A program made the translations under genes and the position numbers. Positions 1,485 through 43,447 of a stretch of DNA of 64,000 bases are shown one piece after another. The notes beneath the pieces were generated by a model. It worked only from the letters and a program-made list of their open reading frames with translations, had not been told where the DNA came from and did no database searches. Location of the stretch: contig JASGDG010000412.1 in assembly GCA_047607325.1 (NCBI GenBank), forward strand, positions 17,711 to 81,710. The letters are read 5' to 3'. How positions within the stretch are numbered: the stretch's first letter is position 1; each line of letters starts with the position of its first letter. This stretch comes from Xenophilus sp. (GTDB lineage Bacteria > Pseudomonadota > Gammaproteobacteria > Burkholderiales > Burkholderiaceae_C).

Positions 1485-1748
1485 ATGCAACCCCAAACCC
1501 TTTCCACCAAAACCGGGCTGATCGCGCATCAGCCGATGCCGGGCGGGACGCCGCGCATCGCCCTCGACGAAAACCAGCTCGCCATCCGGTGGGGGCTTTC
1601 CGTCAAGACCCTGCGCCGCTGGCGTCAGGAACAGCTCGGGCCGATCTACTGCAAGCTCGGCCACCGGGTCACCTACCTGCTGCACGAAATCGAAGCCTTC
1701 GAGCGGCGCGTCTCGCGCTACTCCAGCTTCACTCGTGCGTACCAGTGA
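1485..1748 (+). CDS. AlpA/excisionase-like HTH DNA-binding protein
   Basis: LDENQLAIRWGLSVKTLRRWRQEQLGPIYCKLGHRVTY is a MerR-like/HTH_17 pattern. Confidence 0.85.
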   Translation: MQPQTLSTKTGLIAHQPMPGGTPRIALDENQLAIRWGLSVKTLRRWRQEQLGPIYCKLGHRVTYLLHEIEAFERRVSRYSSFTRAYQ

Positions 1749-1758
1749 GGAGACGGTC

Positions 1759-2238
1759 ATGAACGATTTGACCCTCTTTCCCGCCGACATCGCCGCGATG
1801 TCCGTCAGCCAGTTGGCCGCGCTGCCCGCCGCGCAGAAGGCCGAGATCGACAAGAACCTCGACGAAGCCCTCGACTGGCTCAAGAAGGCGCGCACCAAGT
1901 TCGACGCGGCGCTCGACGCCGCCTACGGCGAACAGGCCCGCACGGCGCTGCGCGATTCCGGCCGCGACTTCGGCACCGCGCATCTCGACGACGGCCCGCT
2001 GCACATCAAGTTCGAACTGCCCAAGAAGGTCAGTTGGGATCAGAAGAAGCTGAGCGACATCGCCGCCCACATCGTGGCCTCCGGCGAGAAGGTCGAGCAC
2101 TTCCTCGACGTGAAGCTGGCGGTTTCCGAATCGCGCTTTACCAACTGGCCGCCGACGCTCCAGCAGGAGTTCGCCGCCGCTCGCACGGTCGAGCCGGGCA
2201 AGCCGTCTTTCACCCTTTCCCTCGATTCGGAGCACTGA
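1759..2238 (+). CDS. Conserved phage hypothetical protein
   Basis: GAGGAG RBS; 159 aa; coupled to the phage early genes. Confidence 0.75.
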   Translation: MNDLTLFPADIAAMSVSQLAALPAAQKAEIDKNLDEALDWLKKARTKFDAALDAAYGEQARTALRDSGRDFGTAHLDDGPLHIKFELPKKVSWDQKKLSDIAAHIVASGEKVEHFLDVKLAVSESRFTNWPPTLQQEFAAARTVEPGKPSFTLSLDSEH

Positions 2239-2240
2239 TC

Positions 2241-2522
2241 ATGAGCACCAGCCTCATCGCTTTGCTGCGCAAGCAGCTACCGTCCATCTTCGGCGAATCC
2301 CTGCCCACGGACATCCATTACCGCAACGCCGACGGCAACGTGGTCGCCGTCGCGCTCGACGCGGCCACGGTGGACGAACTGGCCTTCGCCATCCAGACCG
2401 CCAGCGCGGAAGCGTCGGCATTGAACCGCCGCCGCAACGCGCTGGAAGACCTCCACACCGAGGTGCGCAAGCGCGCCGCCCGCGGTGCCGACCGCATCGC
2501 CGACATCGCGTGGGAGGGCTGA
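2241..2522 (+). CDS. Phage hypothetical protein
   Basis: 93-aa ORF closely coupled to both neighbours. Confidence 0.7.
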   Translation: MSTSLIALLRKQLPSIFGESLPTDIHYRNADGNVVAVALDAATVDELAFAIQTASAEASALNRRRNALEDLHTEVRKRAARGADRIADIAWEG

Positions 2523-2524
2523 TC

Positions 2525-3286
2525 ATGAGCGCGATCATTCCCTTCCAGTTCGAGGCGCACGCCGTGCGCGTGCAGGTCGACGGCGCGGGCCTGCCGTGGT
2601 TCAACGCCAGCGACGTCTGCGATGCGCTGGAGATGGGCAACCCGTCTCAGGCGATCAAGTCCCACGTCGATGCCGATGATCTCCAGAAATTGGAGGTCAT
2701 CGACAACCTCGGCCGCACACAGCGCGCCAACCACGTCAACGAATCCGGCCTCTACGCTCTGATCCTCGGCAGCACGAAGGACGCCGCAAAACGCTTCAAG
2801 CGTTGGGTGACCGGCGAAGTGCTGCCCGCGATCCGCAAGACCGGCGCGTATGCCACCCCCGGCACGCTGGCGGCCTTGCCCGCGCCGACCCACGACCGCG
2901 TGTCCGCCATCCTGCTGATCGGCGAGGCCGTGGCGAAGGTGCCGGGCGTGAAGCCGGGTATCGCGGTGGCGGCGACGCTGACCTGTATTCAGGAGAACAC
3001 CGGCATCACCACCGAGGTGCTGCGCCGCGCGCTGTCGTCGGCCAACGAGCCGATCTGCGCCTTGAACGCCACCCAGCTCGGCAAGCTGCTGAACCGCTCG
3101 GCCAAGGCCACGAACCAGTTGCTGTCGGCAGGCGGATTCCAGTTTCGCAATGACCGCGACGAATGGGAACTGACCGAGGCCGGTGAAGCGTGGGCCGAGG
3201 CCATGCCGTACTCGCGCAACGGCCACAGCGGCTACCAGATTCTCTGGAATCCCGCCGTCGCCGACGAGTTGAAGGAGGTGGCGTGA
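2525..3286 (+). CDS. BRO-N domain antirepressor-like protein
   Basis: PWFNASDVCDALE...VNESGLYALILGS...AKRFKRWVTGEVLPAIRKTG is the BRO-N signature. Confidence 0.9.
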   Translation: MSAIIPFQFEAHAVRVQVDGAGLPWFNASDVCDALEMGNPSQAIKSHVDADDLQKLEVIDNLGRTQRANHVNESGLYALILGSTKDAAKRFKRWVTGEVLPAIRKTGAYATPGTLAALPAPTHDRVSAILLIGEAVAKVPGVKPGIAVAATLTCIQENTGITTEVLRRALSSANEPICALNATQLGKLLNRSAKATNQLLSAGGFQFRNDRDEWELTEAGEAWAEAMPYSRNGHSGYQILWNPAVADELKEVA

Positions 3287-4140
3287 TGTCCCTCCCGATC
3301 ATCTCCGCGCAGCAGCGCATGGCCGAGCGCAAGGGCGTGAAGCTCCTGATGCTGGGCAAGTCCGGCATCGGCAAGACCACCCGGCTCAAAGACCTCGACC
3401 CGAAGACCACGCTGTTCATCGACATCGAGGCGGGCGACCTCGCCGTGGCCGACTGGCCGGGCGACACCATTCGTCCGGCGTCGTGGCCGGAGAGCCGCGA
3501 CTTCTTCGTGTTCCTCGCCGGGCCGGACAAGTCCCTGCCGCCGGACGCCGCGTTCTCGCAGGCGCATTACGACCACGTCATCGAGAAGTTCGGCGACCCG
3601 GAGCAGCTCGACCGCTACCACACCTTCTTCCTCGACTCGATCACGCAGCTCTCGCGCCAGTGCTTCGCGTGGTGCAAGACGCAACCGGGCGCGGTCAGCG
3701 ACCGCACCGGCAAGCCCGACATGCGCGGCGCTTACGGTCAGCTTGGACAGGAGATGGTCAGTGCGCTCACCCACCTGCAGCACGCGCGTGGCAAGAACGT
3801 GGTGTTCGTCTGCATCCTCGACGAACGGCTCGACGACTACAACCGCAAGGTGTTCGTGCCGCAGATCGAGGGCAGCAAGACCAGCCTCGAACTGCCCGGC
3901 ATCGTCGACGAGGTCGTGACGCTGGCCGAGATCAAGGCCCAGAACCCGGATGGCAGCGACAGCAGCTTCCGCGCCTTCGTCACCCACACCCTCAATCCCT
4001 ACGGCTATCCGGCCAAAGACCGCAGCGGTCGTCTCGACCTGCTCGAACCGCCGGACTTGAACGCGCTGATCGCCAAGTGCGCGGGCACGCCCGTGCCCGC
4101 CAGCGTCGCCATTCCCCAATCCCACGAATCTCAGGAGTAA
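3286..4140 (+). CDS. AAA_24/Sak4-like phage recombination ATPase
   Basis: Walker A GKSGIGKT; Walker B FFLDSIT; sits upstream of the SSB and exonuclease. Confidence 0.8.
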   Translation: MSLPIISAQQRMAERKGVKLLMLGKSGIGKTTRLKDLDPKTTLFIDIEAGDLAVADWPGDTIRPASWPESRDFFVFLAGPDKSLPPDAAFSQAHYDHVIEKFGDPEQLDRYHTFFLDSITQLSRQCFAWCKTQPGAVSDRTGKPDMRGAYGQLGQEMVSALTHLQHARGKNVVFVCILDERLDDYNRKVFVPQIEGSKTSLELPGIVDEVVTLAEIKAQNPDGSDSSFRAFVTHTLNPYGYPAKDRSGRLDLLEPPDLNALIAKCAGTPVPASVAIPQSHESQE

Positions 4141-4145
4141 TCACC

Positions 4146-4784
4146 ATGACCACGCAGAACTGGAACGACTTCAACGACGCCGAACAGCAGCAAGGCTTCG
4201 ACCTCATCCCCAAGGGCACCATCGTCCCGGTGCGCATGACCATCAAGCCGGGCGGCCACGACGATCCCGAACAGGGCTGGGGCGGCGGCTATGCCACCGA
4301 ATCCTTCGAGACCGGCTCGATCTACCTCGCCGCCGAGTTCGTCGTCACCGGCGGCGCGCACGCCAAACGCAAGATGTGGTCGAACATCGGCCTGCACTCC
4401 AAGAAGGGGCCGACGTGGGGCCAGATGGGGCGTAGCTTCATCCGCGCCGTGCTCAACAGCGCGCGCAACGTCCATCCGCAGGACAACGGCCCGCAGGCGG
4501 CGGCCGCGCGCCGTATCCAAGGCTTCCACGAACTGGACGGCATCGAGTTCCTCGCCCGTGTGGATGTCGAGAAGGACGCCAAAGGCCTGGATCGCAACGT
4601 CGTGAAGCTCGCGGTCGAACCCGACCACCCCGACTACGCCAAGTTCATGGGCGTGCCGCCGAAAACCAAGACCGGCGGTGGTACTTCGGGCGCTCCGGCG
4701 CAGGCCGCGCCGTCTTCCTACACCGCCACGCCCGCCGCGCCGCAGCGCGCGCCGGTGACCGGCAAGCCCGCGTGGGCGCAGTGA
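4146..4784 (+). CDS. Phage ssDNA-binding protein (DUF669-like)
   Basis: Acidic N-terminus DFNDAEQQQGFDLIPKG; beta-rich core; low-complexity P/A tail ending PAWAQ. Confidence 0.65.
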   Translation: MTTQNWNDFNDAEQQQGFDLIPKGTIVPVRMTIKPGGHDDPEQGWGGGYATESFETGSIYLAAEFVVTGGAHAKRKMWSNIGLHSKKGPTWGQMGRSFIRAVLNSARNVHPQDNGPQAAAARRIQGFHELDGIEFLARVDVEKDAKGLDRNVVKLAVEPDHPDYAKFMGVPPKTKTGGGTSGAPAQAAPSSYTATPAAPQRAPVTGKPAWAQ

Positions 4785-4793
4785 GGGAGGCGA

Positions 4794-5264
4794 ATGAAAT
4801 GCTGGGTCTGCAAACGACAGGCGCGCGGCTACGGCCACACGGATGGCCGGTTCAAGACCGCCGATCCGCGCCGCTACGTGATCGACTGGGTGTTCTGCTC
4901 GCGCCGCTGTCAGGACGCCTTCCACATGCTCTACGGCAACTGGATGCGCGTGAAGGAAGGGCGCGTCGCCAAGACGGAGGTCGCCATGATCGATCCGTCT
5001 GATATCGAGAAGGCCGCGATGAGGAAGTGCCTCAAGGCCTTCGGCGAAGCGGCGGGCGAAATCGGCTTCGACAAGCCCTTGGGCCAGTACGACGAAGCCG
5101 AGGCGCTGCGCGTCATCGACGCCATCGTCACCTGCTACACGGAGGCGATGGTCGAGCACCACGAGGCGACCAAGTACCCACCCGTGCGCGGCATGGCTCC
5201 GACGCCCGACCCATTCGATCTGTCCGATCTGGAGGACAAGGAGTTCTGGGAGGCGAAGCCATGA
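4794..5264 (+). CDS. Phage hypothetical protein with N-terminal Zn-finger-like CxxC...CxxxC
   Basis: MKCWVCKR...FCSRRCQ; GGGAGG RBS. Confidence 0.7.
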   Translation: MKCWVCKRQARGYGHTDGRFKTADPRRYVIDWVFCSRRCQDAFHMLYGNWMRVKEGRVAKTEVAMIDPSDIEKAAMRKCLKAFGEAAGEIGFDKPLGQYDEAEALRVIDAIVTCYTEAMVEHHEATKYPPVRGMAPTPDPFDLSDLEDKEFWEAKP

Positions 5265-5998
5265 TGGACTTCAATTCCTCGTCCAGCGTCTCCGGCCAGA
5301 TCACCGCGCTCGTGGACATCGGCATGCAGCGCGTGCGCGCACAGCAGCCCGCGCGTGACTACCTCGGCGCATCGCGTCTGGGCGTGTCGTGCGAGCGCGC
5401 CTTGCAGTTCGAGTACGCGAAGGCTCCGGTCGACTACGGACGCGACACCCAAGGCCGGATGCTGCGCATCTTCGAGCGCGGTCACGTCATCGAGGACTGC
5501 ATGGTGGCGTGGCTCCGTGACGCGGGCTTCGATCTGCGAACGCAGAAACCAGACGGCGGTCAGTTCGGTTTCTCCGATGCGCATGGTCGGCTGCGCGGTC
5601 ACGTCGACGGCGTCATCGTCGGCGGGCCGGAGGGTTTCCGCTACCCCGCGCTGTGGGAGAACAAATGCCTCGGCGTGAAGGCGTGGCGCGAGCTGGACGC
5701 CAAAGGCCTCGCGGTCGCCAAGCCGGTGTACGCGGCGCAGGTCGCGCTGTATCAGGCCCACCTGCAACTGCACGAGCACCCGGCGCTGTTCACCGCGATC
5801 AACGCCGACACGATGGAGATCTACGTCGAACTCGTGCCCTTCGATCCCGCGCTGGCGCAACGCATGACCGACCGTGCGGTGAAGGTCATTGCGGCGACCG
5901 AAGCCAGTGAACTGCTGCCGCGCGCTTTCAACGATGCCACCCACTTCGAATGCCGTATGTGCGCGTGGCAAGACCGCTGCTGGAGGACACCGGCATGA
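5261..5998 (+). CDS. PD-(D/E)xK exonuclease (Cas4-like/YqaJ-like phage nuclease)
   Basis: GHVDG...WENK motifs, Q-x-x-x-Y, and Cys cluster CER...CRMCAWQDRC. Confidence 0.8.
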   Translation: MMDFNSSSSVSGQITALVDIGMQRVRAQQPARDYLGASRLGVSCERALQFEYAKAPVDYGRDTQGRMLRIFERGHVIEDCMVAWLRDAGFDLRTQKPDGGQFGFSDAHGRLRGHVDGVIVGGPEGFRYPALWENKCLGVKAWRELDAKGLAVAKPVYAAQVALYQAHLQLHEHPALFTAINADTMEIYVELVPFDPALAQRMTDRAVKVIAATEASELLPRAFNDATHFECRMCAWQDRCWRTPA

Positions 5999-6249
5999 AC
6001 GATGACACCCAATTCGCTGGCGGCGTCGAACCCATGATCGACGCCAAGCAGGCTGCCACTGCCTTGCGTTTGCCGTACTACTGGTTTGCCGATCATCAGA
6101 TGCGAGCCAAGTACAGGATTCCGCACTACCTTATGGGTGGTCTGGTTCGCTACCGGCTGTCGGAGCTTTCCGCTTGGGCCGCGCGCAGCAACGCAGTCCA
6201 GAACCGCAACGAACACGACAGCGGATCGTCTGTCGAGGGGGTCGAATGA
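5995..6249 (+). CDS. Small HTH/excisionase-like DNA-binding protein
   Basis: MIDAKQAATALRLP...RIPHYLMGGLVRYRLSEL. Confidence 0.7.
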   Translation: MNDDTQFAGGVEPMIDAKQAATALRLPYYWFADHQMRAKYRIPHYLMGGLVRYRLSELSAWAARSNAVQNRNEHDSGSSVEGVE

Positions 6250-8756
6250 TCGACTTCAACGACGCCAATCCACCTGCCTCTCGTGACCTCGACGCCGAAC
6301 GCGACACCATTCGCACCGAGCTGCTTGGGCGGCTGGAATCGGTGCTAGCGGCACTGTTTCCCGCAGGCAAGAAGCGCAACGGCAAGTTCCTGATCGGCGA
6401 TGTGCTCGGCAGTCCGGGCGACAGCCTCGAAGTCGTGCTCACCGGCGACAAGACCGGCCTGTGGACGGATCGCGCCACGGGCGACGGCGGCGACATCTTC
6501 ACGCTGATCGCGGCGCAGCTCGGCGTCAATGCGCACGCGGATTTTCCGCGCGTGCTCGAAGCGGCGACCGAACTGGTCGGGCGCACTCCGGTGGCACCGG
6601 CGCGCAAGGGCAAGAAAGAAGCGCCCGTCGATGACCTCGGCCCGGCCACCGCCAAGTGGGACTACCTCGACGCCAGCAGCAAGCTGATCGCGGTCGTCTA
6701 TCGCTACGACCCGCCCGGAAGGAAGAAGGAGTTCCGTCCGTGGGACGCGCGCCGCCGCAAGATGGCTCCGCCCGAACCACGTCCGCTCTACAACCAGCCG
6801 AACCTTACCAGCGCCTCGCAGGTGGTGTTGGTCGAAGGCGAGAAATGCGCGCAGGCGCTGATCGGCGCAGGCGTCGTCGCCACCACCGCAATGCACGGCG
6901 CGAACGCGCCGGTGGACAAAACCGACTGGTCGCCGCTGACCGGCAAGGCTGTGCTGATCTGGCCCGACCGCGACAAGCCGGGCTGGGACTACGCGACGCA
7001 AGCGGCGCAGGCCATCCTGTCGGCGGGCGCGAAATCCTGCCACATCCTGTATCCGCCCGAAGACGCTGCCGAAGGTTGGGATGCGGCGGACGCGGCAGTC
7101 GAAGGCTTCGACATCGCGGCTTTCCTCACGCATGGGCCACGCTTGCAGATGCACGACATCGACGAGGAGGCCGCGCCAGTCGTCAGCAACGACGAATCGG
7201 TGTGGGGCACGGAGGACGCGCTGGCGCTGTCCTTCACCCGCCGCTACCACCGCGACTGGCGCTACGTCGCGGCGTGGGGACGTTGGTTGGTGTGGGACGG
7301 GCAACGCTGGCGCACCGAGGACACGCTCGCGGCGACCGACCTGATCCGCAGTGTCTGCCGTCACGCCGCCGTCCACGCCGACAACCCGAAGATCGCCGCC
7401 AAGCTCGCCACCTCCGGCACGGTCGGCGGCGTCGAACGGCTGGCGCGCGCGGATCGCAGGCACGCGGCCACCACTGCCGAATGGGACGCCGACCCGTGGC
7501 TGCTCAACACGCCCGGCGGCGTGGTCGACCTCACCACCGGCAGGCAGCGCACGCACGACCGCGCCGACCGGATGACGAAGATCACCACGGCCACGCCCGG
7601 CGGCGACTGCCCGATCTGGCGGCAGTTCCTCGCCGAAGTCACGGGTGGCGACAACGAGCTGCAAATCTACCTGCAACGGATGGCGGGCTACGCGCTCACC
7701 GGCTCGACGCAGGAGCACGCGTTGTTCTTCCTGTACGGCACGGGTGCGAACGGCAAGTCGGTGTTCGTCAACACGCTGGCCACGATCTTGGGCGACTACG
7801 CGGCCAACGCGCCGATGGACACCTTCATGGAAACGCGCACCGACCGGCATCCGACCGACATGGCGGGCCTGCGTGGCGCGCGCTTCGTGGCCGCCATCGA
7901 AACCGAACAAGGGCGGCGCTGGGCCGAATCCAAGGTCAAGAACCTCACGGGTGGCGACAAGATCTCCGCGCGTTTCATGCGGCAGGACTTCTTCGAGTTC
8001 TTCCCGCAGTTCAAGCTGGTCGTCGCAGGCAACCACAAGCCCGCCATCCGCAACATCGACGAAGCGATGAAGCGGCGGCTGCACCTGATCCCGTTCACGA
8101 TCACCGTGCCGCCCGAACGCCGCGACAAGCATCTCCAGCAGAAGCTCTTGGCCGAGCGCGACGGCATTCTGGCGTGGGCGATTCAGGGTTGTCTGGACTG
8201 GCAGCGCCTCGGACGGCTCGCGCCGCCGCAGCAGGTGCTCGAAGCGACCGAGGAGTATTTCGAGGCCGAAGACGCGGTGAGCGCCGAACCCATCGGTGGC
8301 AATGGTTTGATCGGGCCGGTCGTCGGCGACCGCTACTTCCTCGCCCACCCGAAGGTGTCGGCGGTCGTGGTCACCGATTCGGCGGGCACGCCCGCGACGC
8401 TGGTCGCAGGTACCCACTACACCGTGGACACGGACTTCGGTGCCCTCCAGTTTCTGGATACCACCGGCTTCACCGCGCCGTTCAAGGCAGCCTACACCTA
8501 CGGCGCGGCCACCGAGATCGGCATCTTCACGCAGTCGGTGCCGGAGCGTTACCTGCGGCTGGAAGGCATCAACACCGCGCAGGGCAACGCGAAGGTGTTG
8601 GTCGAGCTGTACCGCGTGGCCTTCGATCCGCTGAAGGAAATCTCCTTCATCTCGGACGAATACAACAAGTTCGAGCTGGAAGGCTCGCTCTTGGCCGACA
8701 CCACCAAGCCCTTCGACGCGGTGCTCGGCCAGTTCGGTCGCATCGTGCAGTTGTGA
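6246..8756 (+). pseudogene. Chimeric ORF: P4/D5-family primase-helicase (about 677 aa, C-terminus lost) fused in frame to the C-terminal 159 aa of a major tail tube protein
   Basis: TOPRIM VLVEGEK...DRD; SF3 Walker A GTGANGKS and motif C VVAGNHKP; after EYFEAEDA (GAC GCG, 8271-8276) the sequence switches to VSAEPIGG...RYFLAHPKVS...YTVDTDFGALQF...FGRIVQL, which is tail-tube-like and directly precedes the tail chaperone. Confidence 0.85.
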
Positions 8757-8764
8757 GGTGCGCC

Positions 8765-9163
8765 ATGAGCGATCTGGACAAGCTCGTCCCGCAAGCCTTC
8801 GAGATCACGCTCGCGGGCGAAGCCGTCAGCGTGAAGCCGCTGAAGGTCGGGCAGATGCCCGCCTTCCTGCGCGCGATCACGCCGGTGATGCAGCAGATCG
8901 GCGGCGACGGCATCGACTGGCTGGCGCTGTTCGGCGAGCGCGGCGACGACCTGCTGACGGCGGTGTCCATCGCCATCGGCAAACCGCGCGCGTGGGTCGA
9001 TGCACTCGACGCCGACGAAGCCATCCTACTAGCGGCGAAGGTGATCGAGGTGAACGCGGATTTTTTTACCCGGACGGTGATGCCGCGCCTCGACGGGCTG
9101 ATCGCGCGGACGAGCGCGGCGGTGGCGACGGCCACGGCTGGTTCGACACCGTCCAGCACCTGA
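8765..9163 (+). CDS. Tail assembly chaperone (gpG-like)
   Basis: Lies between the tail tube remnant and the tape measure; GAGGTG RBS; contains the slippery run T TTT TTT. Confidence 0.75.
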   Translation: MSDLDKLVPQAFEITLAGEAVSVKPLKVGQMPAFLRAITPVMQQIGGDGIDWLALFGERGDDLLTAVSIAIGKPRAWVDALDADEAILLAAKVIEVNADFFTRTVMPRLDGLIARTSAAVATATAGSTPSST

Positions 9164-9369
9164 TCGCCCACGGCCACCGGCTGCCGGACATCCTCGACTA
9201 CACGCTGGCGCAGCTGCGCGGCTTCGCCGCTGCCACGGCGCGGGAGGACGCCGCGTGCGATGCGCGGCTGCTCTCGTTGATCGCCATCGGCGCGCGCGGC
9301 GATGCCCGCCACCTCGACCAGACCCTCGACAGGCTCCAAGACCGTGCGCATCTCCGTTCGCATCGATAG
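9067..9369 (+). CDS. gpT-like segment, probably reached by a -1 ribosomal frameshift from the chaperone gene
   Basis: -1 frame is open from the T7 run (9061-9067) to 9369; FDTVQHLIAHGHRLPDILDYTLAQ; no ATG start of its own. Confidence 0.55.
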   Translation, partial: YPDGDAAPRRADRADERGGGDGHGWFDTVQHLIAHGHRLPDILDYTLAQLRGFAAATAREDAACDARLLSLIAIGARGDARHLDQTLDRLQDRAHLRSHR

Positions 9370-9988
9370 CAAGGCCGCGCAGGCGCAATTGCGACACTGG
9401 GGCGGTGAGTTCCGCGACAAGGTCAAGAAGGCGGTCGCGCGCGGCATCGCCAGCGAGGCTACCGACCTGAAACAGGACGTGCGCAGCCACGTCGCGGGCC
9501 AGATGGCGGTGGTCAAGAAATCCTTCGTCAAGGGCTTCACCGCGAAGGTGCTCGACAAGGACAAAAACCGGCTGCCCGCGCTCTACGTCGGCTCGCGCAT
9601 CCCGTGGTCGGGCATCCACGAGCACGGCGGACAGATCGCGGGCCGGATGCTGATTCCGCTGAACGGGCGCGTGGGCCGCAAACGCTTCAAGGCGCAGATC
9701 GCCGAGCTGATGCGCGGCGGCAACGCCTATTTCATCAAGAATGCAAAGGGGAACATCGTGCTGATGGCTGAGAACATCGCCGAACACGACCGCGTGCTCT
9801 CCGGCTTCAAGCGCCGCCACCGCAAGGCCGAAGGCATCAAGAAGTTGAAGCGCGGCGCGGACATTCCCATCGCGGTGCTGGTGCCGCGTGTGGTGCTCAA
9901 GAAACGGCTCGATGTCGAGCGGATCGTCGCGGGCCGTATCCCGCGTCTGACGGCGGCCATCGAAAAGCAGCTTCGCGTGGTGGACTGA
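9344..9988 (+). CDS. Phage tail-region protein (DUF6441-like)
   Basis: GTG start, VRISVRIDSK; basic protein directly upstream of the tape measure. Confidence 0.7.
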   Translation: MRISVRIDSKAAQAQLRHWGGEFRDKVKKAVARGIASEATDLKQDVRSHVAGQMAVVKKSFVKGFTAKVLDKDKNRLPALYVGSRIPWSGIHEHGGQIAGRMLIPLNGRVGRKRFKAQIAELMRGGNAYFIKNAKGNIVLMAENIAEHDRVLSGFKRRHRKAEGIKKLKRGADIPIAVLVPRVVLKKRLDVERIVAGRIPRLTAAIEKQLRVVD

Positions 9989-9989
9989 G

Positions 9990-12900
9990 ATGGCGAACCG
10001 GATTTCCGTCCTCGTCGCGCTGGAAGGCGCGGACGAGGGTCTCAAGCGCGCCATCACGTCCGCCGAGCGCAGTCTGGGCGAACTGTCGTCCAGCGCCAAG
10101 ACCGCAGGTGACAAGGCCGCCGCCGGGATGGCCGAGGTCAAGGCCGGGGTCTCGGCCTTCGGCGATCAGGTTTCCAAGGCCAAGACGCAACTGCTGGCCT
10201 TCCTGACCATCAACTGGGCGGCGGGCAAGGTGCAGGAGATCGTCCAGATCGCCGATGCGTGGAACATGATGTCCGCGCGTCTGAAGCTCGCCACCGCAGG
10301 CCAGCGCGAATACGCGGCCGCGCAGAAGGAACTGTTCGCCATCGCCCAGCGCATCGGCGTGCCGATCCAAGAAACCGCCACGCTCTACGGCAAGCTCCAG
10401 CAGGCCGTGCGGATGCTCGGCGGCGAGCAGAAGGACGCGCTGTCGCTCACCGAAAGCATCTCGCAGGCGCTGCGCCTGTCGGGAGCGTCGGCGACCGAAG
10501 CGCAATCGTCCCTGCTGCAATTCGGGCAGGCGCTGGCGTCGGGCGTACTGCGCGGCGAGGAATTCAATTCCGTCGTCGAGAACAGCCCGCGTCTGGCGAA
10601 GGCGCTGGCCGACGGCCTGAACGTCCCCATCGGTCGGCTGCGCAAGCTGGCCGAGGAAGGACGGCTGACCGCCGACGTGGTGGTCAACACGCTGATGAGC
10701 CAGAAGGACAAGCTGGCTGCCGAGTATGCGCAACTGCCGATGACCGTCGGTCAGGCCTTCACCCGCCTGTCGAACGCCTTCGGCCAGTGGATCAGCCGCC
10801 TCGACGAATCCACCGGCTTCACCGAGAAGCTGGCGCAGGCGCTGACCTGGCTCGCGGAAAACCTCGACACCGTGATGAAGTGGCTGACCCGCATCGCCGA
10901 GGTCGGCCTCGCGGTGCTGGTCTATCGCCTGATCCCGGCGCTGATCATCGCGTGGCAGACGGCGGGCGCGGCGGCGGTGACGGCGGCCAGCACCACGGCG
11001 GCGGCATGGGCGACGGCGAACCTGTCGGTGTCCAGCGCCATCGCCTCGGTCGGCAAGCTGCGCGTGGCCTTCGGCGTGCTCGGCGCGGCCATCGTCGGCT
11101 GGGAAATCGGGACGTGGCTGTCGGAGAAGTTCGAGATCGTCCGCAAGGCGGGCATCTTCATGGTCGAGGTGCTGATGAAGGGCATCGAGCACCTGCGCTT
11201 CCAGTGGGAGGTGTTCGCCGCCGTCTTCACATCCGACACCATCGCCGAAGCCACCAAGCGCCATGAGGAACGCCTCGCGGAGATGAACCGCATCTTCGGC
11301 GAGATGTACGCCGACGCCGCCGAGGGCGCGAACGCGGCGCGCGGCGCGATGAACACCGCCGCGACCGCCGCCGAGGAAATCGCCAAGCGGCTCGAAGCCG
11401 TGCGGCAAGGCACGCAGGAAGCAGTCGGGCGCGGCATCGAGGCGGTTCACGCCGCGTTGGAGAAGCTGAAAGGTCGTCTCGGCGAGGTGGAACAGTCGGT
11501 CGGCAAGGCGCAGGCCACGGTCAGCGACGCCACCGCGAAGATGGCCGAAGCCTACAAGGGCTTGTCCGCGCAGGTCGAGGCCAGCCTCGGGCAGCAGGTG
11601 CTGGCGGTGAAGAACCGCTACGAGCAGGAGAAGGCGGAGCTGGAACTCACCCGCCAGTCCGAAACCGCCAAGATCACGCAGTCCACGCAACTGCTGACCG
11701 AAGCCCTGACGCAGCAGACCACGCTGCGCCGCAACGCCACCACCGAAACGCTCGCCCTGATCGATCAGGAATCGCAGGCGCGGCGCGACGCGGCGGCGCG
11801 GCAGGGCCAGACCGAGGCCGAACGCGCAGCCAACGTGCAGCGCGTCGAGAACGACATCCTCGCCACCAAGCGGCAGACGCTGGCGCAGGCGCTGGGCGAG
11901 TACCGCCAGCACATCGACGCGCTCAACGCCGAGGCCAATCGGCATCTGGCCGAAGTCCAGCGCATCGAGGAGGCCAAGCGGCAGTTGTCGATGACGACGG
12001 AGGAGCGCATCCGCGACATCCGCCGTCAGGGCATGACGGAGTACGAGGCCACCGAGGATCGCAAGCGCCAGATCGCCGAGATGCAGGAACAGGCGCGGCA
12101 GGCCCTGGCCAACGGCGAGCTGGAGCTTGCCCGGCAGCTCGCGCAGAAGGCGATGGACATGGCCGCGCAGGTGGCCAACGCGCAGACCTCCGAGGCCAAG
12201 CGCGCCGAGGAAGCGCGCAAGCAGTCCGAACAGGCGGTCACGCAGGCAGCGCAACTGGAAGCGCAGGCCCGCGAAGCGCGGCGCAATCAGGAATACGCGC
12301 AGGCCGACGCGCTGGAACGGCAGGCGGCGCAGGTGCGCGCCGATGCCGCCCAGAAAGCGCGCGAAGCCGATGCACAGGCCGCGCAGGGCAAGCAAGGCGT
12401 GGCCGATGCCATCGACCGCATCCGCCAGTCCGAGGACATCCTCAACCAGTCGCTCGATGCCGAAGCCAAGGCGCACCAGAGCGCAGCACAGGCGGCCACC
12501 AGCGCGCGCGACGAGATCGCCTCGACGCTGGCGCAGACCCAAGCCAAGATCGACGAGATCAGCGCCAAGCTCAGTGCGGGCCTGAAGGTGACGCTCGATG
12601 CGGACACCTCGCGCTTCGATCAGGCGCTGGTCGCGCTGGACGCGGCCCTCGCCGAAAAGCAGTATCTGCTCCAGATCCAAGCCGACTTGCAAGAAGCGGA
12701 GAAGAAGCTCAAGGAATACGAGCAGCTGCTGAAGGAAGGCAAGACCCTGCCGGTCGATGCCGATGTCAGCAAGGCGCGCGAGGCGCTGGATCGGCTCAAG
12801 ACCTACGCCGACCAGAACGCGCAGTTCGAGTTGAAGGTGGCGACGGAGAAGGCGCAGGCGGCGATCACCAACGTGGATGGGATGATCCGCGCGCTCGACC

Positions 12901-13988
12901 GCATCCAGACGGAATCGCGCCACATCGTCAACAGCAACGCCGACGCGGCGCGCGCGGAGATCATGAGCCTGAACGGCGCGAACACCTCCAGCACGCACAC
13001 CATCTACGTGCAGCGGGTCGAGGTCAACGCCACGGGTGGGCTGGTCGGCGGCGGTGTGCGCCGCTTTGCCGACGGCGGCGCGGTCGCGCCCGCGTTCCCG
13101 CGTCTGTCCGGCGGCACCGTGCCCGGCTCCGGCCACCACGACACCGTGCCGCGCACGCTGGACGCCGGTGCGTTCGTGCTGCGCAAGGCGGCGGTGCGCA
13201 AGTACGGCGCGGGCCGGTTGGCGAACCTCGCCCGGGGCGTCGCGCACTTCGCGCTCGGCGGGCCGGTCGGCGGTGATCCGCCCAAGCGCAACCGGGACGT
13301 GGTCGAGGCGCTGAAGATGATCGACCTCGGCCTGCAAGGGATGAACGAATACACGAGCTGGGTGCAGTTCAAGTACGGCGCGGCGGTCAGCCTGAACATG
13401 AAGTCCGACACGATGCGCAACTACGGCAAGCAGGCCGCCGTGGATCGTGCCGCGCTGGAGAAGCTGGTCTCCACCAAGACCCTCACGTCCAACGAGCGCG
13501 CCATCGTCGAAGGCGCGAAGCGGACGTGGCGCAATGCGATGGCGCAGCCGCTGGTCTACGGCAAAGACCTCGAACGCGAGCTGATCGACTACATGGAGAG
13601 TCTGGACGGCCAGTTCCTCGCGCGCGGCGGTCTGGCGAAGTCCGACACCGTGCCCGCGATGCTCACGCCCGGCGAGTTCGTGGTGAACCGCAACGCCGTC
13701 GCGCGGCTGGGCGCGGGCTTCTTCGAGGCCATCAACAGCCTGTCCGCGCCCGCGCAGGCGCTGGCAGGCCGGACGCTCGCCAGCGTGCAGGGCTTCGCCA
13801 GCGGCGGCTTGGTGTCACCCATCGGCGCGAACCTGCCGCGCCCGGCCTTGAACGACGCCAGCGCGCCCGCGCGCACCGTGCGCGTCGAACTGGCGGCAGG
13901 CGGCAACAAGGTCGACGCCACCGTCGATGGGCGCGACGAAGCGCGTCTGCTGCAACTGCTGGACGCCGCGCGCGCCCGCACGGCCTGA
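9990..13988 (+). CDS. Tail tape measure protein
   Basis: 1332 aa, A/E/Q-rich helical; tape-measure N-terminal motif (QFGQALASGVLRGEEFNSVVENSPRLAKALA); repeated FAxGGxV and DTVPAMLTPGEFV. Confidence 0.95.
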   Translation: MANRISVLVALEGADEGLKRAITSAERSLGELSSSAKTAGDKAAAGMAEVKAGVSAFGDQVSKAKTQLLAFLTINWAAGKVQEIVQIADAWNMMSARLKLATAGQREYAAAQKELFAIAQRIGVPIQETATLYGKLQQAVRMLGGEQKDALSLTESISQALRLSGASATEAQSSLLQFGQALASGVLRGEEFNSVVENSPRLAKALADGLNVPIGRLRKLAEEGRLTADVVVNTLMSQKDKLAAEYAQLPMTVGQAFTRLSNAFGQWISRLDESTGFTEKLAQALTWLAENLDTVMKWLTRIAEVGLAVLVYRLIPALIIAWQTAGAAAVTAASTTAAAWATANLSVSSAIASVGKLRVAFGVLGAAIVGWEIGTWLSEKFEIVRKAGIFMVEVLMKGIEHLRFQWEVFAAVFTSDTIAEATKRHEERLAEMNRIFGEMYADAAEGANAARGAMNTAATAAEEIAKRLEAVRQGTQEAVGRGIEAVHAALEKLKGRLGEVEQSVGKAQATVSDATAKMAEAYKGLSAQVEASLGQQVLAVKNRYEQEKAELELTRQSETAKITQSTQLLTEALTQQTTLRRNATTETLALIDQESQARRDAAARQGQTEAERAANVQRVENDILATKRQTLAQALGEYRQHIDALNAEANRHLAEVQRIEEAKRQLSMTTEERIRDIRRQGMTEYEATEDRKRQIAEMQEQARQALANGELELARQLAQKAMDMAAQVANAQTSEAKRAEEARKQSEQAVTQAAQLEAQAREARRNQEYAQADALERQAAQVRADAAQKAREADAQAAQGKQGVADAIDRIRQSEDILNQSLDAEAKAHQSAAQAATSARDEIASTLAQTQAKIDEISAKLSAGLKVTLDADTSRFDQALVALDAALAEKQYLLQIQADLQEAEKKLKEYEQLLKEGKTLPVDADVSKAREALDRLKTYADQNAQFELKVATEKAQAAITNVDGMIRALDRIQTESRHIVNSNADAARAEIMSLNGANTSSTHTIYVQRVEVNATGGLVGGGVRRFADGGAVAPAFPRLSGGTVPGSGHHDTVPRTLDAGAFVLRKAAVRKYGAGRLANLARGVAHFALGGPVGGDPPKRNRDVVEALKMIDLGLQGMNEYTSWVQFKYGAAVSLNMKSDTMRNYGKQAAVDRAALEKLVSTKTLTSNERAIVEGAKRTWRNAMAQPLVYGKDLERELIDYMESLDGQFLARGGLAKSDTVPAMLTPGEFVVNRNAVARLGAGFFEAINSLSAPAQALAGRTLASVQGFASGGLVSPIGANLPRPALNDASAPARTVRVELAAGGNKVDATVDGRDEARLLQLLDAARARTA

Positions 13989-14006
13989 CCTTTTTCGAGT
14001 TCACCG

Positions 14007-14414
14007 ATGCAACTGAAGAACCTCGCCACCGGGGTGGCTCTGCCATTGCCCGACGACTTGCTGTGGAGCGACGAACACGCATGGTCGCCCGCCGTCGCCT
14101 CCGTGTCCTACCTACTCACCGGCGCGCTGCTGGTGCAGTCGGCCACGCGGCAAGCGGGCCGCCCGATCACGCTGGTCGGGCCTTCTGACATGGCGTGGGT
14201 GACGCGCGCGGCGGTGGCCACGCTGCACGGCTGGGCCGCCGCGCCGCTGACGGCCAGCAGTGGCCGCTTCGAGCTGACCCTGCGTGACGCGCGCGTGTTC
14301 ACGGTGGCCTTCCGCCACGCCGACACCGCCGTCGACGCCGAACCCGTGCTGGGTTTCCCGGCGCAGGCCGACACCGATTTCTACCGCATCACCTTGCGGT
14401 TGATGCAAATCTGA
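14007..14414 (+). CDS. Putative distal tail protein
   Basis: First gene after the tape measure; 135 aa, beta-rich. Confidence 0.65.
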   Translation: MQLKNLATGVALPLPDDLLWSDEHAWSPAVASVSYLLTGALLVQSATRQAGRPITLVGPSDMAWVTRAAVATLHGWAAAPLTASSGRFELTLRDARVFTVAFRHADTAVDAEPVLGFPAQADTDFYRITLRLMQI

Positions 14415-14427
14415 TCCGGAGATTCCC

Positions 14428-17400
14428 ATGCCCATTCTTGCAGGCGACGTGAAGCTGGTCGCCAGTCAGGTGATGGACGACGTCGCCGAGGGTGGCGGCG
14501 CGCCCACCTCCAATGTCATCGTCGATGGCGCGAGCAATTCGCTGTTCAACGACATCTCGGAACTGGATCGCGCGGGCGGGCGCGTGAACCTGCGCAAGGT
14601 GTTCGCCAGCATCCAGACCGACACCACCGACACCTACCTCGGCGGCAACGTCGTCGTGTCCGATCCGCCCGGCGATCCGCGTGTGGCCGTCACCATCTTC
14701 TCCACCGAGTCGGTGTTCGACCGCCGCACCAACGCGCGTGACCGTATCGAGGCCTACCTCAACAAGGGATCGATGTGGAACGGTTTCCTGCTGGAGAACC
14801 ACATCGCGGGCCAGCGCAGTATCCAGTTGTTCCAGCGCGTGGGCGCGGAACTGCCGACCATCGGCAAGACCCTGTTCCTCGTGATGAACGAGGGGCTGGC
14901 CAGCGAATATTCGCAGTACATCCGCATCACCCGCATCGAGTCGGAAACCCGCACCTTCAGCTACGGATCGGGCGGCAGCATTCAGGACTACCAAGCGGTG
15001 GTCGTCACCTGCGACTTGTCCGACGCGCTGCGCTACGACTTCCCCGGCTCGCCGCCGGAGCGGTTGTTCTCGATGGCCTCGGGCAAGACCAAGTGCCGCG
15101 ACACCGTGGTGGCCGACGCCGCCAAGTATTGCGGCGTGGTCAAGACCACCCAGCCGGTCGGCATCGGCGACGTGGCCGCCAGCGTCACCAGCGTGTTCAC
15201 CCAACTGGTGCCGTCGGCGCAGACCGAAACGCCGCTGCTCGACTTGACCGCGGGCGGCACCTCCGAAACCCTGATCGAGTCGGACAACGGCACGGTGTCC
15301 TACACCAGCTCGGTGGCGTTCAATTCCTCGACCGTGCTCTCGGTCGGCAACGCCATCCAGCCGGGCACGCTGTCGATCAGCGTCAGCGGCGCGACGCTCA
15401 CCGACAACGGCGGCGACCTGATGTCGGGCGCGACCGTGGTCGGCACCATCAACTACGGGCGCGGCCAGATCACGCTGGCGTCCAGCGCGCCGACCTATTC
15501 GGGCAGCAAGACCATCACCTTCCGGCCTGCCGCCGCGCCGATCCGCGTGGCCGACACGGCGGGCGTCCGGGTGGACATCGAGAACCGCTCCTACAACTAC
15601 ATCCTGACCATCGTGCCCAGCCCGTCGCCGGGCACCATCCAAGTGAGCTACCGGGCGCAGGGCAAGTGGTATGACCTGCGCGACAACGGCGCGGGCGTGT
15701 TGAAGGGAGCCAGCCCGGAGTACGGCGTCGGCACCGTCAGCTACACGACCGGCACGGTGGCCGTGACGTTGGGCGCGCTACCCGACGTCGGCTGCGAGAT
15801 CGTCTATGCGTGGGGCGGCAAGGCCAACTACTTCAACCGCGCTGGCAGCGCCATTGCGCCGCCGTCGGTGGCTTTCCAGTTGTCGAACACGGGCGTCACG
15901 CCGGGGTCGGTGAGCATCACTTGGAACGACGGTGCGGCGCGCAGCGCCACCGACAACGGCAAGGGCGCGATCAGCGGCAACGCCACCGGCACGATCAACT
16001 ACCAGACCGGCCTGATCCAGATCACGCCGACCACGTTGCCTGCGGGCGGCCAGACCTACAGCGTCGCCTATACGTGGGGGCCGCCCTTTGATGCGGAATT
16101 CCACGCGCCGCTGCGCAACGGCGACGGCAGCATCGACGTGGAGGTGGAGTTCGACGGCCTGATCCCCGGCTCGGTCGAGCTGGAGTGGAACCTGCTGATC
16201 GACCTCTACGAATACATCTCGACCACGCCCGCCGAACTGCAAATCATCCGCTCGGTCGATCCGATCAAGATCGTCAAGGACGACGGCTTGGGCGTGCTGC
16301 GCGATCCGCAGGGCACGGCCTTCGGCTCGGTGAACTACAGCACGGGTGTCGTCCATTTCGTGCCGGACACCACCGTGCGCATTCCGGTAGCGCGCTACAG
16401 CGTCACGCGCATCGGCTGGACGCGCAACGCGAACAACGCGCTGGTGCCGGTCTACCGCAACCTGTTCTCGCATTGGGAATACATCACGGCGGGCGCGTCG
16501 ATGCCCGTGGATGAAAGCGGTCTGGCGAAGGTGCGCTTCCGCGCGGCGGGCACGTCCAACGCCTCGAACGACAGCTTCACGGCGGGCGCGCTGGCCATCG
16601 ACCTCACGCCGACCTTCGCCGAGAACATCGTGCCGGGCAGCATCAACTTCACGCTGGGCGGCAAGACCTATTTCGACCGGCTGGGCAGTCTCTACTACGA
16701 CCTGAACCCGGTGACGGGCGCGGCGACGCTGGCGGGCGGCATCAACTACGCCAATGGCGCGGCCAGCATCACGGCGTGGGTGCCCGCCGCCGCGAACGCG
16801 GTGGCGTTGCGCTCGCTGCTCACCACGCTGGACGGCACGCCGGTGGACGAGGTGACCTTCCGCGTCCCGGCCTCGCCGGTGCGCCCGTCCAGTCTGCAAA
16901 TCCTCGCCACGCGGCTGACCGGCGGCACGATCAACGTCAGCGCCAACAACAACGGCGACATCACCGGCACCGACATCCTCGGCACCATCGACTACGAAAC
17001 CGGCGTGGTGCGCGTGCGCTTCGGCGCGTGGGTGGTGGCCGCCGGGAACGAAGGTCAGATCTGGTTCGACCCGGACGCGGTGGTCACCATCGACGGCGTC
17101 CCGAAGATCTTCAAGCCGGTGCCGGTGTTCGCCGACACCATCAAATACAACGCGGTCGCGTATTCCTACCTGCCGCTGGACGCCGACATCATCGGCCTCG
17201 ACCCGGTGCGGCTGCCGCAAGATGGACGTGTGCCGATCTTCCGCGCGGGCGACTTCGCGGTCATCGGCCACACCGCCACGGTCGGGCCGCTCACCGCCAC
17301 CAGCGGACAGGTCGTGGACTGCGGGCGCGAGCGCCTGTCGCGCGTGCGCGTGCTCGACGGCAACGGTACGGTCGTCACCACCGACTACACCGCCGATCTC

Positions 17401-18033
17401 GAAGCCGGAACCGTCACCTTCGGCGTGGTCACCGGCCTCGTGCAGCCGATCACCGTCGAGCACCGCATCGAGGACATGGCGCAGGTGTCGGATGTGCAGA
17501 TCTCCGGGCGGCTGGCCTTCACGCGCCAGATCACCCACGACTACCCGGTCGGCGCGCACGTCTCCTCGGCGCTGGTGTCGGGCGACCTGCGCGCCTACGT
17601 CTCCAACCTGTTCGATCAGGCGTCGTGGAACGGGACGTTCGCCGATGCCATCAGCGGCGCGGCGGCGACCGCCACCTACAACGACGTGCTGGCACCCATC
17701 GTGGTGACGAACGCGGGCGCGATCACCGAACGCTGGGCGATCCAGTTCACCAACGCCACCTCGTTCAACGTCATCGGCGAACACGTCGGCGTGATCGCCA
17801 CCGGCACGACGGGAAACGACATCGCGCCGATCAACCCAGCCACCGGCAAGCCGTACTTCACGCTGGCCGCCATCGGCTGGGGTTCGGGCTGGGCGGCGGG
17901 CAACGTGCTGCGCTTCAACACCACCGGCGCGCTGTTCCCGGTGTGGGTCGTGCGCACCATCCAGCAAGGCCCGGAAACCGTCACCAACGACTCGTTCACC
18001 TTGCTGGTGCGCGGCGACGTGGATCGGCCTTGA
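14428..18033 (+). CDS. Large tail tip/baseplate structural protein
   Basis: 1201 aa, T/G/V-rich, with repeated G-x-(I/V)-(N/D/S)-Y-x-x-G motifs. Confidence 0.8.
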   Translation: MPILAGDVKLVASQVMDDVAEGGGAPTSNVIVDGASNSLFNDISELDRAGGRVNLRKVFASIQTDTTDTYLGGNVVVSDPPGDPRVAVTIFSTESVFDRRTNARDRIEAYLNKGSMWNGFLLENHIAGQRSIQLFQRVGAELPTIGKTLFLVMNEGLASEYSQYIRITRIESETRTFSYGSGGSIQDYQAVVVTCDLSDALRYDFPGSPPERLFSMASGKTKCRDTVVADAAKYCGVVKTTQPVGIGDVAASVTSVFTQLVPSAQTETPLLDLTAGGTSETLIESDNGTVSYTSSVAFNSSTVLSVGNAIQPGTLSISVSGATLTDNGGDLMSGATVVGTINYGRGQITLASSAPTYSGSKTITFRPAAAPIRVADTAGVRVDIENRSYNYILTIVPSPSPGTIQVSYRAQGKWYDLRDNGAGVLKGASPEYGVGTVSYTTGTVAVTLGALPDVGCEIVYAWGGKANYFNRAGSAIAPPSVAFQLSNTGVTPGSVSITWNDGAARSATDNGKGAISGNATGTINYQTGLIQITPTTLPAGGQTYSVAYTWGPPFDAEFHAPLRNGDGSIDVEVEFDGLIPGSVELEWNLLIDLYEYISTTPAELQIIRSVDPIKIVKDDGLGVLRDPQGTAFGSVNYSTGVVHFVPDTTVRIPVARYSVTRIGWTRNANNALVPVYRNLFSHWEYITAGASMPVDESGLAKVRFRAAGTSNASNDSFTAGALAIDLTPTFAENIVPGSINFTLGGKTYFDRLGSLYYDLNPVTGAATLAGGINYANGAASITAWVPAAANAVALRSLLTTLDGTPVDEVTFRVPASPVRPSSLQILATRLTGGTINVSANNNGDITGTDILGTIDYETGVVRVRFGAWVVAAGNEGQIWFDPDAVVTIDGVPKIFKPVPVFADTIKYNAVAYSYLPLDADIIGLDPVRLPQDGRVPIFRAGDFAVIGHTATVGPLTATSGQVVDCGRERLSRVRVLDGNGTVVTTDYTADLEAGTVTFGVVTGLVQPITVEHRIEDMAQVSDVQISGRLAFTRQITHDYPVGAHVSSALVSGDLRAYVSNLFDQASWNGTFADAISGAAATATYNDVLAPIVVTNAGAITERWAIQFTNATSFNVIGEHVGVIATGTTGNDIAPINPATGKPYFTLAAIGWGSGWAAGNVLRFNTTGALFPVWVVRTIQQGPETVTNDSFTLLVRGDVDRP

Positions 18034-18043
18034 GAGGAACACC

Positions 18044-19312: not shown

Positions 19313-19315
19313 GCG

Positions 19316-20682: not shown

Positions 20683-20685
20683 CCC

Positions 20686-36247: not shown

Positions 36248-36258
36248 CGATACTTTCC

Positions 36259-37995: not shown

Positions 37996-38011
37996 TGCGG
38001 TGGTTCTTCCC

Positions 38012-38911: not shown

Positions 38912-38988
38912 GGTTGGGTTCCTTACCCGCGACCGGCACAGGCCGGTCTGGAAGCAAACGCTCGACTATTCATGATTCGGCATCATAC

Positions 38989-43441: not shown

Positions 43442-43447
43442 AATTCC

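What the first reader, a model, noticed from the sequence alone, without database searches (positions are those of the whole stretch)
8262..8290. In-frame primase-helicase::major tail protein fusion marks a head-module deletion
Seen: the SF3 primase-helicase reads normally to EEYFEAEDA, then continues in frame at GTG 8277 as VSAEPIGG...FGRIVQL, followed directly by chaperone and tape measure. Established: siphoviruses place terminase, portal, capsid and connectors between replication and tail genes, and P4-type primases continue past this point with a C-terminal domain. Inference: one deletion removed the primase C-terminus, all packaging and head genes and the tube N-terminus, creating an 836-aa chimera. 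A weak GAGG 11 nt before GTG 8277 might also allow separate translation of the tube fragment.
Basis: partly seen in the sequence, partly recalled or inferred. Interest (0 to 1): 0.75.

Follow-up and report, generated by a model that had tools for sequence, protein, structure and literature searches.

The report
Prophage deletion fusing primase to tail tube
A resident virus (prophage) in this bacterial genome has lost about 15 kb, including all its head and DNA-packaging genes, and the scar happens to join the remains of a replication gene and a tail gene into one open reading frame: an ordinary dead prophage, not a new kind of protein.

Summary
ORF 6246-8756 (+) encodes 836 aa. Residues 1-677 are a P4-family primase-helicase and residues 678-836 are the C-terminal part of a siphovirus major tail (tube) protein. 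The joint lies at 8275/8276, with 2 nt (CG) shared by both parents.

A same-genus genome (G011) carries the intact, collinear prophage. There, 15.67 kb separates the two breakpoints. That stretch holds the last 83 aa of the primase, a RuvC-like resolvase, two ParB-methyltransferases, both terminase subunits, portal, protease, decoration protein, major capsid protein, tail terminator and tube residues 1-94. None of this is found anywhere else in the MAG.

The 160 best relatives of the 836-aa protein all match residues 1-678 only. The junction sequence is absent from three public contig collections.

All other prophage genes are still open, and the tube fragment shows no relaxed constraint. This suggests a recent deletion.

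By homology with the solved JBD30 tube protein, the fragment lacks half of the tube-forming beta-sandwich and the hinge loop. No tail, and so no tailocin, can be built from it.

Main caveat: the genome is a MAG and its reads could not be found, so the joint is not confirmed by reads. Interest is low.

The parts
1485..6177 (+). Early and regulatory genes of the prophage: regulator, antirepressor and others. They are collinear with AcaML1 gp9-gp16 and with G011.
   Evidence: tblastn with AcaML1 proteins gives 61-84% identity. blastn to G011 gives 83.6%. All frames are open.
6246..8756 (+). Chimeric ORF of 836 aa: primase-helicase fused to a major tail protein fragment.
   Evidence: Translation. 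PHROG hits phrog_6088 and phrog_807. Pfam D5_N and DUF5906. PDB 8RK3 hit to aa 691-836.
6246..8276 (+). Primase-helicase part (aa 1-677). It lacks the conserved C-terminal 83-84 aa.
   Evidence: More than 100 homologues of 759-765 aa are 94-98% identical over aa 500-678. The 160 best loci match residues 1-678 only. Relatives continue 84 aa after EEYFEAED.
8275..8276 (+). Deletion joint. The 2 nt (CG) are shared by both parental sequences. Around them, 8 of 12 positions match between the X9 parental sequences (by eye).
   Evidence: In Logan contigs the left homology ends at 8276 and the right homology starts at 8275. Loose ends give the parental continuations. Alignment with G011.
8277..8756 (+). 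Major tail (tube) protein fragment. It corresponds to aa 95-250 of the 250-aa G011 orthologue and roughly aa 93-255 of JBD30 gp44.
   Evidence: tblastn with the G011 tube gives 93% identity over aa 95-250. phrog_807 profile positions 108-255 of 256. PDB 8rk3_q alignment.
8767..9163 (+). 132-aa ORF in the position of the tail assembly chaperone. It has no family match.
   Evidence: No Pfam or PHROG hit. Conserved with G011. Calling it a chaperone is inferred from position only.
9302..9988 (+). DUF6441 / phrog_6367 protein between the tube and the tape measure.
   Evidence: Pfam E 1e-80. PHROG E 3.5e-71.
9990..13988 (+). Tape measure protein (1332 aa), intact.
   Evidence: Pfam TMP_3 E 9.5e-65. 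phrog_8010. 83% identity to G011 over the full length.
14007..22831 (+). Distal tail and baseplate/fibre genes, all open.
   Evidence: PHROG hits phrog_4408, 6128, 9998, 3758 and 6079. Full-length tblastn matches to G011 proteins without stops.
22935..24135 (+). Lysis cassette ending in the endolysin. This is the right end of the recognisable prophage.
   Evidence: phrog_7 endolysin E 1.3e-47. 67-84% identity to AcaML1 gp62-64.

Best explanation
This is the scar of a single deletion of about 15-16 kb inside an integrated temperate siphovirus. The prophage belongs to a widespread proteobacterial family with AcaML1-like early genes and a JBD30-like tail tube.

The deletion runs from codon 678 of the P4-family primase-helicase gene to codon 95 of the major tail protein gene. 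The two ends were joined at a 2-nt microhomology (CG), as in illegitimate recombination or end-joining. The genome encodes a Ku homologue.

The joint happens to be in frame (a 1-in-3 chance). Translation that starts at the primase ATG (6246) therefore runs into the tube remnant and gives an 836-aa chimera.

The element has lost the primase C-terminal tail, a RuvC-like resolvase, two ParB-methyltransferases, both terminase subunits, portal, protease, decoration protein, capsid protein, tail terminator and the N-terminal 94 aa of the tube. It can make neither heads nor tails and is a defective prophage.

Shown: the chimera, the breakpoint, the missing genes, and their absence from the rest of the bin. 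Inferred: the joining mechanism, the recency of the event, the chimera being a by-product without function, and the surviving tail and lysis genes now depending on read-through from the early operon because their own upstream region was deleted.
For: - Two-family architecture, with each profile truncated at the joint.
- Homology breaks at 8275/8276 in independent relatives, whose contigs continue as primase (LGRWLDERCV...) or come from upstream tube sequence.
- The same-genus G011 prophage is collinear on both sides, with 15.67 kb more in between.
- That segment encodes RuvC-like, ParB-MTase x2, terS, terL, portal, protease, decoration, MCP and tail terminator.
- No homologue of the segment occurs elsewhere in the 429-contig MAG, by tblastn and blastn.
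- All 160 best related loci, and all 120 listed protein hits, cover only the primase part.
- 133 of 136 relatives extend 84 aa past EEYFEAED.
- The junction pattern is absent from genome, viral and metagenome contig collections.
- All remaining prophage genes are open.
- dN/dS of the tube fragment is 0.13, like its neighbours at 0.12-0.25.
- A Ku gene is present.
- No terminator-like site above background lies between the chimera and the tail genes.
- The tube fragment aligns to JBD30 gp44 residues 105-255. In gp44, residues 8-41 and 62-73 are part of the tube-forming beta-sandwich and residues 42-62 are the inter-disc hinge loop (PMC11445458).
Against: - The genome is a fragmented MAG (429 contigs), and C412 is twice as long as any other contig.
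- No sequencing run holding the source sample was served, so no read evidence spans the joint.
- The deletion could be a minority variant in the sampled population rather than fixed.
- The recency argument rests on one pairwise dN/dS comparison, in which most divergence predates the deletion anyway.
Confidence: 0.85

Rival explanations
1. Assembly artefact. The organism carries an intact prophage, and the assembler (or a chimeric read or library artefact) joined the primase and tube genes wrongly.
For: The source is a MAG assembly with median contig 6.2 kb, while this contig is 89 kb.
Against: - The two parental sequences share only 2 nt at the joint. No repeat long enough for a k-mer graph to cross exists there.
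- Both sides keep the order and orientation of the intact prophage.
- No contig in the bin carries any part of the 15.7-kb segment, not even the primase 3' end or tube 5' end.
- The contig contains no N.
Confidence: 0.1
2. A head-less but working tail machine: an F-type tailocin-like particle made from the surviving tail and lysis genes. The tube would be supplied by the chimera, or by internal initiation at GTG 8277.
For: All tail genes from 8767 to 22831 and the lysis cassette are open. GAGG lies 11 nt before GTG 8277.
Against: - The tube fragment lacks the region equivalent to JBD30 gp44 residues 1 to about 92. That region holds two of the three segments of the tube-forming beta-sandwich and the hinge loop that links successive discs (PMC11445458).
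- The tail terminator gene (phrog_4204) lies in the deleted segment.
- No other tube gene of this type is in the MAG.
- The GAGG is part of conserved primase codons.
- The joint is found in no other genome, so there is no sign of retention by selection.
Confidence: 0.03
3. A natural, selected fusion protein. For example, a truncated primase-helicase acting as a dominant-negative block to related incoming phages.
For: The frame is open and keeps the primase start, D5_N and the SF3 helicase region with its Walker A motif GTGANGKS. An oligomeric helicase without its C-terminal domain could in principle poison a related enzyme (inference only).
Against: No second example was found: not among the 120 best protein hits listed, the 160 best related loci listed, or three contig collections searched for the joint. 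An in-frame joint is expected by chance in one deletion out of three.
Confidence: 0.02

Closest known systems
Intact prophage in a same-genus genome (G011, contig C79) and the related contig in run X25
   Same: Same gene order and orientation from the early genes through primase, tube, tape measure, distal tail and lysis. Nucleotide identity is 66-85% over about 22 kb. The primase is 87% and the tube 93% identical at protein level.
   Different: These relatives carry a further 15.67 kb (G011) or 14.3 kb (X25) between the breakpoints, with replication accessory, packaging, head and connector genes. The window has none of it.
Acidithiobacillus phage AcaML1 (JX507079)
   Same: Recombinase genes, early region, primase (73% aa over residues 1-684) and lysis cassette are collinear and 61-85% identical at protein level.
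   Different: AcaML1 is complete and has a contractile (sheath/tube/baseplate) tail module. The window carries a siphovirus-type tail and lacks the whole head block.
Ralstonia solanacearum prophage record YO164_3 (ON170278)
   Same: It has both parents on one molecule and in the same orientation: a 762-aa primase, then terS, terL, portal, protease, MCP and connectors, then a 261-aa tube.
   Different: About 17 kb separates the equivalent breakpoints. Identity is only 68-70% at protein level.
Pseudomonas phage JBD30 gp44 major tail protein (PDB 8RK3/8RK8/8RQE; PMC11445458)
   Same: The G011 orthologue aligns over residues 30-250 (E 2.5e-44). The window fragment aligns to gp44 residues 105-255 (E 5e-29).
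   Different: The window copy lacks the equivalent of gp44 residues 1 to about 92: beta-sandwich strands 8-41 and 62-73, hinge loop 42-62 and helix 77-83.
Cryptic or defective prophages and F-type tailocins (from established knowledge; not fetched here)
   Same: A prophage that has lost the ability to make virions through internal deletion. As in F-type pyocins, the tail and lysis genes survive without head genes.
   Different: Tailocin loci keep an intact tube gene and tail terminator, and they are conserved across strains. Here both are destroyed or lost, and the joint is unique to this assembly.

Membership tests
P4-family phage/plasmid primase-helicase (D5_N + SF3 helicase) | D5 N-terminal-like domain | tested here: met
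   Pfam PF08706 E 6.8e-38, aa 330-466.
P4-family phage/plasmid primase-helicase (D5_N + SF3 helicase) | SF3 helicase / P-loop region | tested here: met
   Pfam DUF5906 E 1.4e-10, above cut-off, aa 496-611. Walker A GTGANGKS is visible in the translation. Weak PDB hits to ASFV C962R primase.
P4-family phage/plasmid primase-helicase (D5_N + SF3 helicase) | N-terminal primase (Toprim-type) domain | tested here: inconclusive
   Pfam Toprim E 0.028, 15 bits, below the 23.1-bit cut-off. The phrog_6088 'DNA primase' match does start at aa 96.
P4-family phage/plasmid primase-helicase (D5_N + SF3 helicase) | Conserved C-terminal 83-84 aa tail (LGRWLDERC...YTPYADN) | tested here: not met
   Present in 133 of 136 relatives and replaced here by tube sequence. 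That it binds the origin, as in P4 alpha, comes from memory and was not tested.
Siphovirus major tail (tube) protein, phrog_807 / JBD30 gp44-like | C-terminal beta-sandwich half and Ig-like decoration domain | tested here: met
   phrog_807 E 1.7e-49, profile 108-255 of 256. 8rk3_q residues 105-255.
Siphovirus major tail (tube) protein, phrog_807 / JBD30 gp44-like | N-terminal beta-sandwich strands and inter-disc hinge loop | tested here: not met
   Residues 1-94 of the 250-aa orthologue are absent. The domain map comes from PMC11445458.
Complete temperate tailed prophage | Terminase, portal and major capsid protein genes | tested here: not met
   tblastn with two sets of orthologues, and blastn with the G011 segment, find none in C412 or in the rest of the MAG.
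Complete temperate tailed prophage | Recombinase and regulatory module | tested here: met
   Recombinase genes at C412 12478-14695 (left of the window) are 85% identical to AcaML1 gp3. Regulator and antirepressor lie in the window.
F-type (flexible) tailocin | Intact tube gene and tail terminator with no head genes | tested here: not met
   Head genes are absent. However, the tube is truncated and the terminator (phrog_4204) lies in the deleted segment.
F-type (flexible) tailocin | Conservation of the head-less arrangement across strains | tested here: not met
   The junction is found in no other genome, viral contig or metagenome contig, and in none of the 8 Logan runs laid on the joint.

The most novel reading that the evidence does not exclude
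The deletion did more than kill the phage. It removed the region upstream of the late genes and placed an intact tail and lysis block directly behind the early/replication operon. Prophage derepression would then cause lysis without progeny (a suicide-like cassette). In addition, the truncated helicase chimera might interfere with replication of related incoming phages. Nothing seen here excludes either effect, and nothing supports them beyond gene order.
Probability: 0.05. Interest if true: 0.4.

Novelty: new member of a known kind. Interest (0 to 1): 0.15.

Why it matters
It matters mainly for annotation. The 836-aa 'protein' should be labelled as a deletion chimera or pseudogene, not as a new domain architecture. 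The element should be called a defective prophage, not an active phage or a tailocin.

It is also a clean, base-resolved example of prophage inactivation by a single microhomology-joined deletion in an uncultured bacterium. The intact parent type is identifiable in a same-genus genome.

The prophage family itself is strikingly widespread. Its primase is 73-92% identical across the 80 best genome loci, mostly Beta- and Gammaproteobacteria.

Tried and rejected
- Read support. Three searches for sequencing runs, using the junction, the tube side and a divergent tail gene, found no run with more than 0.52 of the words. Laying 8 runs showed only intact relatives that break at 8275/8276.
- The same joint elsewhere. 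A degenerate 32-nt junction pattern found nothing in genome contigs, viral contigs or metagenome contigs.
- Full-length homologues. None among the 120 protein hits or the 160 loci.
- Head genes hidden elsewhere in the bin. None found.
- attL/attR. No direct repeat of the tmRNA 3' end, or of the left border, occurs on the right side. This would fit AcaML1-type recombinases that need no long repeats (recombinase class from memory, not tested). The right border is set only by loss of homology after 24135.
- Pfam on the lost 83-aa primase tail and on the full tube. No family above threshold.
- Internal initiation at GTG 8277. Rejected as meaningful because the GAGG is part of conserved primase codons.
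- Tailocin reading. Rejected on the truncated tube and the lost terminator.

Full report
**The object**

The window is G000:C412:17711-81710 of a 429-contig MAG (90.5% complete). C412, at 89 kb, is its longest contig.

On the + strand one frame is open from TTG 6174 to the stop at 8754-8756. Relatives start at the ATG equivalent to 6246 (MIDFND / MLDFND), which gives 836 aa.

The protein reads as a primase-helicase up to ...ATEEYFEAEDA. It then continues VSAEPIGGNGLIGPVVGDRYF...FGRIVQL*.

- Pfam finds D5_N (E 6.8e-38) and DUF5906 (E 1.4e-10) in the left part.
- PHROGs finds 'DNA primase' phrog_6088 over aa 96-679. This matches profile positions 120-694 of 772, so the profile end is missing.
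- PHROGs also finds 'major tail protein with Ig-like domain' phrog_807 over aa 690-836. This matches profile positions 107-255 of 256, so the profile start is missing.

**The breakpoint**

Logan contigs from unrelated public runs, laid on 7700-9300, match the left side up to 8276 and the right side from 8275.

- In one 43.8-kb contig (run X25) both halves lie on the same strand, 14.3 kb apart.
- In run X9 the primase contig continues after 8276 as CTGGGCCGCTGGCTCGACGAACGCTGCGTG (LGRWLDERCV).
- Also in X9, the tube contig arrives at 8275 from ...GGCACCACCGGCT.
- Four further runs show the same break and no joint.

The joint is therefore GAC-GCG|GTG-AGC, with the dinucleotide CG (8275-8276) common to both parents. 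Around it, 8 of 12 positions agree between the X9 parental sequences (my reading). This is a typical illegitimate-recombination joint. It is far too short for a k-mer assembler to have jumped across.

**The intact parent type**

A same-genus genome (G011, contig C79) carries a collinear prophage.

- Window 1563-8282 matches G011 (reverse-complemented region) 8481-15198.
- Window 8315-24107 matches 30871-46925.
- Identity is 66-85%.

The 15.67 kb between these blocks is missing from the window. In G011 it encodes:

- the last 83 aa of a 760-aa primase
- a RuvC-like resolvase
- two ParB-domain DNA methyltransferases
- small and large terminase subunits
- portal, head maturation protease, head decoration protein and major head protein
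- a tail terminator (PHROG E-values 1e-29 to 1e-264)
- the first 94 aa of a 250-aa tube protein

The Ralstonia record ON170278 shows the same order, with about 17 kb between the equivalent points.

The early region, primase and lysis cassette also match Acidithiobacillus phage AcaML1, which has a different, contractile tail.

The prophage's left end lies outside the window. Recombinase genes sit at C412 12478-14695, 85% identical to AcaML1 gp3, next to a tmRNA gene at C412 11785-12170.

**Is the missing part elsewhere?**

tblastn with the Ralstonia and G011 orthologues, and blastn with the whole G011 segment, find nothing of it in any of the 429 contigs.

**Is the fusion a family?**

It is not.

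- The 120 best hits listed from the 5.8-billion-protein collection are primases. Nearly all are 759-771 aa, with a few partial records of 503-572 aa, and all cover only the primase part.
- The 80 best genome loci and the 80 best IMG/VR loci all match query residues 1-678, or slightly fewer.
- In 133 of 136 of these loci the frame runs exactly 84 aa beyond EEYFEAED and ends ...YTPYADN/D.
- A degenerate junction pattern is absent from genome, viral and metagenome contig collections.

**What is left, and can it work?**

Every other prophage gene has a full-length, stop-free counterpart. The tape measure, distal tail proteins and endolysin are recognised by Pfam and PHROGs.

The tube orthologue is homologous to JBD30 gp44 (PDB 8RK3, E 2.5e-44). 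The window fragment aligns to gp44 residues 105-255.

In gp44 the tube-forming beta-sandwich is made of residues 8-41, 62-73 and 184-256. The hinge loop 42-62 links successive discs, and residues 88-175 form an Ig-like decoration domain (PMC11445458).

The fragment keeps the decoration domain and the last third of the sandwich. It lacks the rest and the hinge loop. Together with the lost tail terminator, this excludes tail assembly and the tailocin reading.

The primase has lost a strictly conserved C-terminal tail. In P4 alpha the C-terminal domain binds the origin (from memory, not tested here), so replication initiation is probably lost as well.

**Age and mechanism (inferred)**

dN/dS against G011 is 0.13 for the tube fragment. 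This falls within the 0.12-0.25 seen for six neighbouring genes, and no other gene is broken. The event looks recent.

The genome has a Ku homologue. This is compatible with end-joining of a double-strand break, but replication slippage is equally possible.

The stop of the chimera (8754-8756) is followed within about 10 nt by the next ORF. No terminator-like site above background lies between them. The tail and lysis genes are therefore now fused transcriptionally to the early operon. Whether this has any consequence is unknown.

**Caveat**

No served sequencing run holds the source sample, so the joint is not verified by reads.

I put about 85% on a real deletion (fixed or polymorphic), about 10% on an assembly or library artefact, and the remainder on functional readings.

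**Verdict**

It is a defective prophage created by one internal deletion, with an accidental in-frame chimera at the scar.

Noticed in passing
window 6246-8276 and loci L019-L178: The primase-helicase of this prophage family is very conserved and widespread. It is 73-92% identical at protein level across the 80 best genome loci (76-92% in those named here): Cupriavidus, Comamonas, Rhodanobacter, Ottowia, Hydrogenophaga, Ralstonia, Aquimonas and even MAGs labelled Chloroflexota or Bacteroidetes. In addition, 20-50% of the 31-mers of window prophage genes recur in termite-gut, hot-spring, wastewater, soil and groundwater metagenomes. This suggests a very broadly spread temperate phage lineage, or hosts that are common contaminants.
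   Followed up: partly
C412 11785-12170 (about 5.5 kb left of the window start): A tmRNA gene (tag ANDERFALAA) lies next to the prophage's recombinase end. No repeat of its 3' end was found on the right side.
   Followed up: partly
L005 (ON170274, Ralstonia 'phage' YO163_3) 12218-15677 and 16901-20713: This record has about 3.5 kb and 3.8 kb of extra DNA between tube and chaperone, and between the DUF6441 gene and the tape measure, relative to the window and G011. The cause could be insertions or a problem with an UNVERIFIED record.
   Followed up: no
window 14428-22617: The distal tail genes (1201-aa phrog_6128 protein, phrog_9998, phrog_6079) are only 34-54% identical to G011, whereas the tube and tape measure are 83-93% identical. 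This is the usual mosaic break at the host-recognition end.
   Followed up: no
window 24200-50000: Directly right of the endolysin the homology to G011 and AcaML1 stops and GC content drops to 58-63%. First-reader notes describe a defence island here with WYL, type I RM, CD-NTase/SLATT and a serine recombinase. I did not examine it.
   Followed up: no
whole genome G000: The MAG is 3.7 Mb at 90.5% estimated completeness, while same-genus genomes are 5.0-6.5 Mb. C412 is twice the length of the next contig. The bin may be less complete than estimated, or C412 may come from a better-covered population.
   Followed up: no
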